From: Pocillopora damicornis
Lineage: Eukaryota
Length of the DNA: 64,000 nucleotides
Assembly: GCF_003704095.1 (NCBI RefSeq)
Contig: NW_020845131.1
Coordinates: 124,001 to 188,000 of the forward strand
Reading direction: 5' to 3'
Below are positions 28,401-29,927 of the stretch, piece by piece; within the stretch, counting starts at the first letter, position 1; each line of letters begins with the position of its first letter. The position numbers were made by a program.

Positions 28401-29927
28401 AATCTTCACAGCTTCAAGGCTTTTTCAAACAATACTTCTTGATTTTGACTTGTAAAACACCCGTTTTCTGTTATTAAGTATACAAACTTAAGAGTTTTAT
28501 CCGTAATCAAGGGTGTTTACTGGTCAGAATTATTCAGGCGTGTTTGTTTTTCACTAGATTTTCACATCTAGCTCTCCTCTAAGGTTTTTTTTCTACACTT
28601 TAGGACAGGTTTCACATCGAAATAGGGAATATGCTAAGTAACTCTTAACACATTTGTTCTGATCCTATATCTACTCTGTACTTATCAAGAATCAATACTG
28701 TAAACAATTATGCTGTGTCATTTACTGATAAACATCAATGTTCATTAAAATCATTAGGCATAAAAAATGACCATCTTCTTTTTGGTACGGTGAATAATTG
28801 TTTCTTAAGCCAATTTTGGATACGATCTTAAGCAATTATAACAGTGCTTCACATCTAAAGAGGAATGACTGATAAGTCTACCTGAGCAGTTTACAATTTT
28901 TTTTATTTCCCTGTAATGGGACTTCACAGATGAGGTTAGACTTCCCCTCTTACAATCTCTCTTTATCTTTTTTTATAGTTCAGAATTATGAGTGACACCA
29001 AAGAGGAGCCCGAAAATCAAGAAGAGGAAGAGACCAGCACTTCTTCTACTCTTCATCACAGAGTTCCGAAATGTGCTCGCTGTCGCACGCATGGCACAGT
29101 TTCTTGGCTCAAGGGTCACAAACATTATTGCCGTTGGAGGGACTGCACTTGTGCAAAGTGCCAACTTATTACCGAGAGACAGCGAGTGACCGCCGCACGT
29201 GTTGCCTTACTGAGACAGCAGAGAAAAGGAGCTGAGTTGAGGGCAAAATATCAAAGAGAACTGGAAAACGCCCGGTTGACGTACTCCATGGTGTTTCAAA
29301 CCAACGGATTAGCTGGTAGGGCCAATTTCCATTTTCGTATTTCCCTTCCCTTTATTCGCAACTTTCATTCTCCTCTTACTTTATTTTAGCTGCTTTGCCC
29401 CGTGAAAATTTTTTCATCAACCTTTTTCAAATTGTCATGATGATATTTAATATGCTAAGCCTGAATTTGCCTCTAAAAACACTTTCAATCGATTTTCTAG
29501 GATTCCCAAGCAGCCATCGACACCATTTTTATCACCATGCACCTCAAGCAGAGATTGGTCATCTGGAACCAAGGATAACGGAAATTAGACCACAAGCTGG
29601 TAGGCCATAACAGTTTTCATTTGGATTGTCGTTATTTCTAGCTCTTTCATAAGGGATTTCCTTGGCAATTCCCTTCTCTAAACACCACTTTTTCCGAACT
29701 GACAACCAAAAAGCAGTGCTTTTTACAGTGTTTTCGTTGTTTGAGCTGTTNNNNNNNNNNNNNNNNNNNNNNNNNNNNNNNNNNNNNNNNNNNNNNNNNN
29801 NNNNNNNNNNNNNNNNNNNNNNNNNNNNNNNNNNNNNNNNNNNNNNNNNNGCACTTGTTAATTTTTTCAAAGACCACAAATTGCACTCGCCCTACGGGCT
29901 CGTGTCGGCAATTTTGTTAGTCTTTAA

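What the first reader, a model, noticed from the sequence alone, without database searches (positions are those of the whole stretch)
29060..29221. Dmrt with a rewired DNA-recognition helix
Seen: all zinc ligands are intact, but the near-invariant DM motifs RNHG and RQRVMAAQVALRR read RTHG and [13 protein letters not shown] (T34, T68, R71, L75). Known: this helix inserts into the major groove. As I recall the DMRT1-DNA structure, the equivalent M115, Q118 and R122 lie on the DNA-contacting face. Inference: three changes at i, i+3 and i+7 in an otherwise intact gene suggest a paralogue with altered sequence specificity or binding stoichiometry, or a heterodimer modulator of other Dmrt proteins. 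This is relevant to anthozoan sexual or neural development.
Basis: partly seen in the sequence, partly recalled or inferred. Interest (0 to 1): 0.7.

Follow-up and report, generated by a model that had tools for sequence, protein, structure and literature searches.

The report
Coral DmrtG gene, variant recognition helix
This is an intact stony-coral copy of a known cnidarian Dmrt gene (the counterpart of sea-anemone DmrtG), and its unusual DNA-binding helix is an old, conserved trademark of a whole cnidarian gene subfamily, not a private rewiring of this one gene.

Summary
A three-exon gene on the + strand (28988..30875) encodes a DM domain with all eight zinc ligands and with T34, T68, R71 and L75 where most DM domains have N, M, Q and R.

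The changes are not assembly errors or private. Six of six full-length coral orthologues carry them. T68/R71/L75 also occurs in 68 of 314 DM domains gathered, from sea anemones, octocorals and a hydrozoan, and in 0 of 110 domains of a mostly bilaterian DMRTA sample.

The signature always comes with KGHK(H/P) in place of KGHKR, and usually with R79 and K80. Full-length members also carry a DMA motif and a C-terminal zinc ribbon. Trees place the gene with Nematostella DMRT G.

The residues that the literature names as DNA contacts are all kept: R25, R33, K45, R64, V72 and R76. The changed residues sit beside them on the groove-facing side.

My best reading is a working DNA-binding factor that still recognises a canonical-type core site, with altered affinity, flank preference or stoichiometry. 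Only T34 is specific to the G clade, which also tolerates S or G there.

Interest is moderate.

The parts
28988..29315 (+). Exon 1: start codon, acidic N-terminus, DM domain and a helical extension. It ends in phase 1 before GT at 29316.
   Evidence: sequence, ORF. (Pfam DM, residues 25-70). The database protein P0001 (405 aa, 99% identical) has the same start and the same junction.
29072..29161 (+). [quoted passage not shown] It holds the ligands C29, C32, H35, H44, C48, C53, C55 and C58, plus T34 (canonical N), K45 and H46 (canonical R).
   Evidence: Regular-expression tally. Ligand numbering in DMRT1 from a legend in bioRxiv 10.1101/2024.06.12.598746.
29153..29227 (+). Recognition helix, residues 56-80. 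Kept residues: R64, R66, V72, R76. Changed residues: T68, R71, L75, R79, K80.
   Evidence: AlphaFold2 helix 56-106 with pLDDT above 90 for residues 51-100. Foldseek match to 4yj0_B. Column statistics. Invariant columns.
29228..29305 (+). Continuation of the same helix (residues 81-106). It is conserved in scleractinian orthologues and in Nematostella DMRT G, but not in the F-type genes.
   Evidence: helix to residue 106. Sequences.
29501..29599 (+). Exon 2 (33 codons, His-rich linker), phase 1 to phase 1.
   Evidence: AG/GT sites. No Pfam family. The junctions match P0001.
29751..29850 (.). Run of 100 N inside intron 2. I left it as it is.
   Evidence: P0001 has no extra residues between exons 2 and 3.
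30085..30875 (+). Exon 3, which runs to the TAA stop at 30873-30875.
   Evidence: acceptor tcttcag|GT. (21 relatives of this exon).
30378..30482 (+). DMA motif (CUE-like).
   Evidence: PF03474, E 9e-12, 44.8 bits against a cut-off of 23.
30786..30851 (+). C-terminal zinc ribbon (FCSRCG...FCAHCG).
   Evidence: PF13240, 27.9 bits against a cut-off of 25. The motif is present in 24 of 24 full-length proteins with the T/R helix: 22 by a strict pattern and 2 as variants.

Best explanation
The gene is the stony-coral orthologue of Nematostella DMRT G. It belongs to a cnidarian branch of the DMA-bearing Dmrt genes whose members combine a DM domain, a DMA motif and a C-terminal zinc ribbon.

This branch fixed a variant DNA-binding surface long ago: R93 to H, V114 to I, M115 to T, Q118 to R, R122 to L, A126 to R and Q127 to K, in DMRT1 numbering. 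It kept every residue that the literature names as a DNA contact. In effect an arginine on the groove-facing side moves one helical turn (122 to 118) and positive charge is redistributed along the helix.

I infer that the protein is a working sequence-specific DNA binder that still recognises an ACA(A/T)TGT-type core. The subfamily changes would then tune backbone contacts, and so affinity, flank preference or the number of protomers per site. T34 is a G-clade loss of the canonical Asn; the position there accepts T, S or G.

What is shown: the gene structure, the domains, conservation of the changes, orthology, and retention of the contact residues. What is inferred: DNA binding, the target site, and any effect on stoichiometry.
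For: Gene model and domains.

Spliced full-length database protein: P0001, 99% identical, 92 member sequences, on contigs of about 2.6 kb, with the same exon junctions.

Conservation in orthologues: 6 of 6 full-length coral orthologues have RTHG and RQRVTA(A/S)RVALLR.

Breadth: 68 of 314 DM domains (31 distinct) have T..R. Among the 31 distinct domains, L75 occurs in 30, H46 in 28 (P in the other 3), R79 in 25 and K80 in 25. No T..R domain has KGHKR. The 110 domains from the mostly bilaterian DMRTA sample contain none.

Named members: Nematostella DMRT G and DMRT F, Acropora, Pocillopora, Actinia, Actinostola, Dendronephthya, Xenia and Hydractinia.

Trees: the T/R rows form one branch (SH-aLRT 96, 35 rows). 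The window-like protein groups with other scleractinians and DMRT G (98). The nearest group is the DMRT D clade, which has a canonical helix and also a zinc ribbon (86). With all DM residues removed the G clade still scores 98 and the trait still needs only 1 change, but with support of only 73.

Contact residues kept: R25 = R72, the minor-groove arginine. R33 = R80. K45 = DSX K60 and R76 = R123 = DSX R91. R64 = R111. R64, V72 and R76 are invariant in 83 aligned sequences.

Fold: helix 56-106, and a match to 4yj0_B with TM 0.77 over 59 columns.

Precedent: six mouse DMRT proteins and seven arthropod Dsx domains with divergent helices all select similar core sites.
Against: No binding data exist for any member of this subfamily, so retention of the canonical site is inference only.

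I could not read the primary structural paper (Murphy 2015). The roles of M115, Q118, R122, R93 and N81 in the crystal are therefore unverified. The list of base-contacting residues is second-hand, from a preprint, and I mapped its wheel positions onto residues myself.

Strict conservation of T68/R71/L75 across classes of Cnidaria argues that these positions matter. That would fit a real change of specificity as well as it fits tuning.

Support for a single origin falls to 73 when the DM domain is left out. The trees used the quick method, without bootstraps. Hydractinia P0126 and Actinia P0051 sit on long branches.
Confidence: 0.6

Rival explanations
1. Changed base specificity. In this reading the T/R/L face reads a different DNA sequence, so the subfamily controls a target set that canonical Dmrt proteins cannot see.
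For: The three residues are fixed in 30-31 of 31 distinct subfamily domains and lie within 40 degrees of R64 on the helical wheel. A new Arg at position 71 could reach a base or a phosphate. In mouse, DMRT1 R111G on the same face alters site choice in vivo.
Against: The base-contacting triad and the minor-groove arginine are unchanged. Far more divergent helices keep the ACAyTGT core in SELEX, and six mouse DMRT proteins select similar sites.
Confidence: 0.2
2. A modulator that binds DNA poorly or not at all. It would act mainly by pairing with other Dmrt proteins, or through its DMA motif and zinc ribbon, as was suggested for mouse DMRT6.
For: DMRT proteins can heterodimerise on DNA. DMRT6, which differs at 6 of 14 helix positions, selected no site in vitro. 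Positive charge is lost here at positions 46 and 75.
Against: DMRT6 lacks the equivalents of DSX K60 and R91, and both are kept here as K45 and R76. Charge is regained at positions 71, 79 and 80. The 52-residue DM core is identical in most scleractinian orthologues, which is hard to explain without a DNA-binding role.
Confidence: 0.1
3. Artefact or decay. The substitutions would be assembly errors, or relaxed selection in a dying paralogue.
For: None found.
Against: The same residues occur in independent records from several coral genera and in other cnidarian classes. The reading frame is intact with canonical splice sites. A spliced full-length protein record exists (P0001). Three of the four codons differ from the canonical residue's codons by two bases.
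Confidence: 0.01

Closest known systems
Nematostella vectensis DMRT G (P0025, 407 aa)
   Same: Exon 1 is 75% identical over its full length. The DM domain has TAARVA and KGHKH, followed by the same long helical extension, a DMA motif and a C-terminal CxxCG...CxxCG ribbon. It groups with the window-like protein at SH-aLRT 98 in both trees.
   Different: It has S rather than T at position 34 and I rather than L at position 74. Its zinc-ribbon Pfam score is 23.1, below the cut-off of 25. Published data show a sex difference in expression and staining in the mesenteries (PMC4433094, section 12). Nothing comparable is known for the coral gene.
F-type cnidarian Dmrt genes (Nematostella DMRT F P0041, Acropora P0033, Pocillopora P0031, Actinia P0039)
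   Same: The same T/R/L helix, H46, R79 and K80, DMA motif and C-terminal ribbon.
   Different: They keep RNHG, have I67 and 'ALSW' in the zinc module, and lack the G-type helical extension. They form a separate starred clade.
Nematostella DMRT D clade (P0118, P0207 Stylophora, P0208 Actinia, P0211)
   Same: A DM domain, a DMA motif and a C-terminal zinc ribbon. It is the nearest group to the T/R branch in the full-length tree (86).
   Different: The helix is canonical, RQRVMAAQVALRR with KGHKR. The ribbon therefore appears to predate the helix change, or to be independent of it.
Bilaterian DMA-bearing Dmrt proteins (DMRTA1, DMRTA2, DMRT3, Dmrt99B, DMD-4)
   Same: DM plus DMA architecture. The DMA motif is a CUE-like ubiquitin-binding module in DMD-4 and human DMRT3 (PMC7538159, passages).
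   Different: In my sample 107 of 110 of their DM domains carry the canonical residues at the five tallied positions (N34, R46, M68, Q71, R75), none has the T/R helix, and none of those I inspected has a C-terminal ribbon.
Human DMRT1 DM domain bound to DNA (PDB 4YJ0)
   Same: Best sequence match (E 1.7e-23) and only structural match in the PDB (TM 0.77, 68% identity over 59 columns). The zinc ligands and the R72, R80, R111, V119 and R123 equivalents are kept.
   Different: N81T, R93H, M115T, Q118R, R122L, A126R, Q127K. DMRT1 has no DMA motif and no ribbon.
Mouse DMRT6 (DMRTB1)
   Same: A natural Dmrt protein with a strongly altered recognition helix (6 of 14 positions).
   Different: DMRT6 lost the DSX K60 and R91 equivalents and selected no site in vitro. 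The coral protein keeps both.

Membership tests
DM domain (Pfam PF00751) | Profile score above the curated cut-off | tested here: met
   76.5 bits against 27, E 1.4e-21, residues 25-70
DM domain (Pfam PF00751) | Two intertwined zinc sites, CCHC and HCCC, with fixed spacing | tested here: met
   C29, C32, H44, C48 and H35, C53, C55, C58 fit the spacing pattern used. The DMRT1 ligand list comes from a preprint legend.
DM domain (Pfam PF00751) | Zinc module followed by a long recognition helix, with a fold like DMRT1 | tested here: met
   AlphaFold2 helix 56-106 with pLDDT above 90 over residues 51-100. Foldseek match to 4yj0_B: E 6e-5, TM 0.77 normalised to the target, rmsd 2.7 over 59 columns. 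This is a model, not an experiment.
DM domain (Pfam PF00751) | DNA-contact residues named in the literature (R72, R80, DSX K60, R111, V119/T, R123) | tested here: met
   R25, R33, K45, R64, V72 and R76 are present. R64, V72, R76 and K45 are invariant in 83 sequences. Residue roles are taken from passages read.
DM domain (Pfam PF00751) | Canonical helix sequence RQRVMAAQVALRR and RNHG | tested here: not met
   The window reads [13 protein letters not shown] and RTHG. This is a consensus, not a defining requirement, because the Pfam score is still far above the cut-off.
DM domain (Pfam PF00751) | Binds an ACA(A/T)TGT-type site as a dimer or larger assembly | not testable with these tools
   No tool here models protein with DNA, and I found no binding data for the subfamily.
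DMA-bearing Dmrt genes | DMA motif C-terminal to the DM domain | tested here: met
   PF03474, 44.8 bits against 23.
Cnidarian T/R-helix, zinc-ribbon Dmrt subfamily (F and G types) | H/P46, T68, R71, L75 together | tested here: met
   The window has H46, T68, R71 and L75. The combination holds in 68 of 68 T..R domains for position 46 and in 30 of 31 distinct domains for L75.
Cnidarian T/R-helix, zinc-ribbon Dmrt subfamily (F and G types) | C-terminal CxxCG-(x)n-CxxCG zinc ribbon | tested here: met
   PF13240, 27.9 bits against 25 in the window. Present in 24 of 24 full-length members by motif. A Pfam hit at E up to 0.01 was found in 7 of 9 relatives scanned, but only 1 of them was above the cut-off.
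DMRT G orthology group | Groups with Nematostella DMRT G to the exclusion of the F, D and bilaterian genes | tested here: met
   SH-aLRT 98 with full-length proteins and 98 with the DM domain removed. Both are quick-method trees.

The most novel reading that the evidence does not exclude
Cnidarians may run two biochemically distinct classes of DM domain. In one class, conserved from hydrozoans to corals, the groove-side arginine has moved one helical turn (Q118R with R122L), R93 has been lost, and R126/K127 have been gained. That class would dock on DNA in a different register. It would therefore prefer a different half-site spacing, flank or protomer number than canonical Dmrt proteins, with the C-terminal zinc ribbon acting as a second nucleic-acid-binding or ubiquitin-binding module. 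The G clade's loss of Asn at position 34 would be a further step away from the canonical mode.
Probability: 0.25. Interest if true: 0.6.

Novelty: new member of a known kind. Interest (0 to 1): 0.35.

Why it matters
Dmrt genes are the most widely shared regulators of sexual development in animals, and the DM recognition helix is usually described as almost invariant. A large, old cnidarian subfamily with a fixed alternative surface is a natural experiment on which helix positions set DNA affinity, site choice and stoichiometry.

The anemone orthologue shows a sex difference in expression in gametogenic tissue, so the coral gene is a reasonable candidate for work on coral reproduction. The gene itself, however, is an ordinary conserved family member, and counterparts are already annotated in other cnidarian genomes.

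Tried and rejected
I left out one step by instruction: joining the three exons into one protein. All searches used single exons, and the database protein P0001 stood in for the full length in the trees.

Reading the primary DMRT1-DNA structure paper failed. It is not held under its DOI or under PMC4476070. Per-residue contacts therefore come from passages in other papers. I found no description of what M115, Q118, R122, R93 or N81 do.

The organisms behind the unnamed T/R-type groups remain unknown. These groups are P0047, P0091, P0093, P0100, P0113, P0128, P0139 and P0095, P0105, P0109-P0116. Their only link to a taxon is likeness to Hydractinia P0126 and Actinia P0051.

That ruled out dN/dS, synteny and intron comparisons.

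I did not send a homodimer prediction job, because the report makes no claim of DNA-free dimerisation.

I rejected the idea of a second Dmrt gene in tandem. A six-frame pattern search found only one DM domain in the window.

Additional file 1 of PMC1931443 and any alignments in supplements of PMC4433094 might bear on helix variation.

Full report
**1. What is in the sequence**

The + strand carries an open frame that starts with ATG at 28988 and reads MSDTKEE...[58 protein letters not shown].

Pfam scores this stretch as a DM domain at 76.5 bits against a cut-off of 27, with E 1.4e-21. The best solved relative is the human DMRT1 DM domain, 4yj0_A, at E 1.7e-23.

**2. Gene model**

- Exon 1 is 28988..29315 and ends in phase 1 at a GT.
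- Exon 2 is 29501..29599.
- Exon 3 is 30085..30875 and ends with TAA.
- The only N run in the window, 29751..29850, lies in intron 2. I left it alone.

Exon 3 carries a DMA motif (PF03474, 44.8 bits against 23). At the very C-terminus it carries a zinc ribbon (PF13240, 27.9 bits against 25).

The joined step was left out. A database protein stands in for the whole protein where one was needed. This is P0001: 405 aa, 99% identical to exon 3, with 92 member sequences on contigs of about 2.6 kb. It has exactly the start, the junctions and the stop that I inferred, and no extra residues where the N run lies.

**3. Are the substitutions private?**

They are not. The exon 3 search returned 21 relatives among 509 candidates. 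I fetched nine of them. Six contain a DM domain, including records named Desmophyllum pertusum and Porites harrisoni, and all six read RTHG and RQRVTA(A/S)RVALLR.

The exon 1 search for longer proteins gave 47 hits among 267 candidates. The exhaustive representative search gave 2465 proteins at E up to 0.001, of which the best 150 are listed.

I tabulated every DM domain that fits the fixed zinc-ligand spacing. Of the 206 proteins first gathered, 190 matched, giving 204 domains. The 16 non-matching proteins were 15 fragments without a DM domain and P0088. The counts were:

| Residues at positions 34 / 68 / 71 / 75 | Domains (of 204) |
|---|---|
| N/M/Q/R (canonical) | 112 |
| T at 68 and R at 71 | 68 |
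| M-to-T only (mostly turtle DMRT2-like records) | 8 |

Other combinations make up the remaining 16 domains.

A further 107 proteins came, mostly bilaterian DMRTA2 and DMRT3. They gave 110 domains, of which 107 were fully canonical and none was T/R. In total, 313 proteins gave 314 domains: 68 T/R (31 distinct) and 230 M/Q (79 distinct).

**4.

The table gives counts among distinct domains. The M/Q class was defined by having M68 and Q71, so the informative columns for that class are 34, 46, 75, 79 and 80.

| Position | T/R domains (31 distinct) | M/Q domains (79 distinct) |
|---|---|---|
| 34 | N 21, T 6, S 3, G 1 | N 77 |
| 46 | H 28, P 3 | R 73 |
| 67 | I 25, V 6 | V 71 |
| 68 | T 31 | M 79 (by definition) |
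| 71 | R 31 | Q 79 (by definition) |
| 75 | L 30, F 1 | R 72 |
| 79 | R 25 | A 42 |
| 80 | K 25 | Q 55 |

Counting all domains, KGHK(H/P) accompanies T..R in 68 of 68, and KGHKR accompanies M..Q in 224.

Position 34 is therefore N in most T/R domains. T, S or G occurs in the DMRT G clade, and T also occurs in some octocoral records. T34 is the only change specific to the window's own clade, and the tolerance of S and G suggests that the Asn function was simply given up there.

**5. Who carries it**

The named T/R proteins are:
- Nematostella DMRT G (P0025) and DMRT F (P0041);
- Acropora millepora, Pocillopora, Actinia tenebrosa and Actinostola;
- the octocorals Dendronephthya and Xenia;
- the hydrozoan Hydractinia symbiolongicarpus (P0126).

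One record labelled as the sponge Haliclona caerulea (P0038) is 82% identical along its whole length to the Actinia protein. I take it for a mislabelled or contaminating anemone sequence.

I therefore cannot exclude members outside Cnidaria.

**6. Architecture travels with the helix**

All 24 T/R proteins of 300 aa or more end in a CxxCG...CxxCG ribbon: 22 by a strict pattern, and P0051 and P0126 as variants. Of 37 longer proteins without the T/R helix in that set, one has the ribbon. It is P0118, which is Nematostella DMRT D. Its relatives P0207, P0208 and P0211 have the ribbon too.

A Pfam scan of nine relatives gave DM in 9 of 9 and DMA in 8 of 9 (not Hydractinia). A zinc-ribbon family hit at E up to 0.01 appeared in 7 of 9, but only one of these was above the curated cut-off.

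The literature I could search reports a ribbon only for NvDmrt F (PMC4433094, passages). Among the 10 papers listed of the 82 found, that is the only paper that pairs Dmrt with a ribbon term.

**7. Trees**

The first tree used 35 full-length proteins and 445 kept columns, with the quick IQ-TREE method. The 19 T/R rows form one side of a branch (SH-aLRT 96). The window-like P0001 sits with five other scleractinian proteins and Nematostella DMRT G (98). The nearest group is the DMRT D clade (86).

The trait's own columns were in that alignment, so I repeated the tree with only the residues C-terminal to the DM domain (32 rows, 361 columns). The G clade is again at 98, and the trait still needs one change, but the support is only 73.

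Hydractinia P0126 and Actinia P0051 are on long branches, so their placement is unsure. The octocoral proteins that have RTHG (for example P0027) fall with the F-like octocoral genes, not with the G clade. T34 may therefore have arisen twice, or the tree is wrong at that point.

**8. What the changed residues are likely to do**

Numbering. The window residue number plus 47 gives the human DMRT1 number. I checked this three ways: by the DMRT1 zinc ligands C76 to C105 listed in a preprint legend, by the mouse R111G repair template, and by the R123A primer. The window number plus 15 gives the DSX number, because R123 equals DSX R91.

Residues the literature names as contacts, all kept here:

| DMRT1 or DSX residue | Stated role | Source | Window residue |
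|---|---|---|---|
| R72 | inserts into the minor groove | PMC8216462, | R25 |
| R80 | hydrogen-bonds to DNA | PMC6855215, | R33 |
| DSX K60 | salt bridge to the backbone | PMC1931443, | K45 |
| R111 | central to binding | PMC9713387, | R64 |
| R123 / DSX R91 | needed for activity | | R76 |

A preprint that summarises the crystal structure says three helix residues contact bases. They sit at wheel positions 8, 16 and 20: two conserved Arg, plus Thr in Dsx (10.1101/2024.09.25.614005, passages). By spacing, these can only be R111, V119 and R123, which are R64, V72 and R76 here. These three are invariant across 83 aligned sequences of both helix types. This mapping is my inference from that text.

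Helical wheel. With R64 at 0 degrees, L75 is at 20, T68 at 40, V72 at 80, R76 at 120 and R71 at 340. The changed residues therefore flank the base-contacting arc on the groove side. They are not on the opposite side, where the preprint places the hydrophobic zipper between protomers.

In effect an arginine moves from position 122 to position 118, one helical turn. Charge is lost at 93 and gained at 126 and 127. AlphaFold2 models an unbroken helix from 56 to 106 with pLDDT above 90 across residues 51-100. The model's only PDB match is 4yj0_B, with TM 0.77.

**9. Mechanism**

Two published sets of selection experiments speak against a new core site:
- Six mouse DMRT proteins select sites like the DSX site despite helix differences (PMC1931443).
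- Seven arthropod Dsx domains all select ACAyTGT, some with more than half of the helix substituted (preprint).

DMRT6, the one protein that selected nothing, had lost the K60 and R91 equivalents. Both are present here.

I therefore commit to a working DNA binder that keeps a canonical-type core and differs in backbone contacts, and thus in affinity, flank preference or protomer number (confidence 0.6). A truly new specificity (0.2) and a modulator that binds DNA poorly (0.1) remain open. An artefact is excluded.

The DMA motif is a ubiquitin-binding, CUE-like stability module in DMD-4 and human DMRT3 (PMC7538159). Whether that holds here is untested.

**10. Biology**

In Nematostella, seven of eleven Dmrt genes differ between the sexes, and all except E are higher in males. 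G was chosen as one of two sex-different genes for in situ work, and it stains the subpharyngeal mesenteries and pharynx (PMC4433094, section 12). That makes a role in the gametogenic region plausible for the coral gene, but it is not shown.

**11. Novelty**

The gene family, the anemone orthologue and the domain set are known, and coral orthologues are already annotated. The pan-cnidarian helix signature is something I did not find in print. The same holds for its strict link with KGHKH and R79/K80, and for the ribbon outside DMRT F.

The search behind that statement is limited. Zero papers hold Dmrt, cnidaria and 'recognition helix' together. For the ribbon.

I rate it a new member of a known kind, of moderate interest.

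Noticed in passing
window 47021-47833 (-): A SIX-class homeobox gene lies about 16 kb downstream. Its ORF has a SIX1 SD domain (E 1.8e-43) and a homeodomain, and its best solved relative is human SIX1 (4egc_A, E 1.6e-75).
   Followed up: partly
window 41009-41644 (-): A single 212-aa ORF holds a complete emp24/gp25L/p24 GOLD domain (PF01105, E 1.8e-39). It appears to be intronless.
   Followed up: no
window 35622-35861 (+): An ORF holds one ankyrin repeat (PF00023, E 5.6e-09). 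It is probably an exon of a neighbouring gene.
   Followed up: no
window 29228-29305 (+), residues 81-106: The recognition helix is modelled as continuing for 26 more residues ([25 protein letters not shown]...). This stretch is conserved in scleractinians and in Nematostella DMRT G but absent from the F-type genes. It could be a G-specific dimerisation or partner-binding helix.
   Followed up: partly
P0118, P0207, P0208, P0211 (Nematostella DMRT D clade): These canonical-helix Dmrt proteins also end in a CxxCG...CxxCG ribbon. The one paper I found on the subject reports a ribbon only for NvDmrt F. The ribbon seems older or wider than the helix change.
   Followed up: partly
P0038 (record labelled Haliclona caerulea, a sponge): It is 82% identical over 401 aligned residues to the Actinia tenebrosa F-type Dmrt, including the low-complexity linkers. 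It is probably an anemone sequence in a sponge record.
   Followed up: partly
P0048-P0053, P0061, P0062, P0169 (turtle DMRT2-like records): They carry the M-to-T change alone (RQRVTAAQVALRR) and also end in QQRA. This is an independent partial parallel to the cnidarian signature.
   Followed up: no
P0022, P0002, P0004-P0007, P0009-P0012, P0016-P0020: Many database 'proteins' for this gene are ORF calls on unspliced genomic DNA. Some are exon 1 read through the intron; others are exon 3 alone. Domain-architecture counts from such collections understate DM plus DMA proteins.
   Followed up: partly
P0026, P0027, P0037, P0046 (octocoral or unnamed): These have the G-like '[11 protein letters not shown]' zinc module, and three of the four have RTHG. 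In the full-length tree, however, P0026 and P0027 fall with F-like octocoral genes. Either T34 arose twice or the octocoral G orthologues are misplaced.
   Followed up: partly
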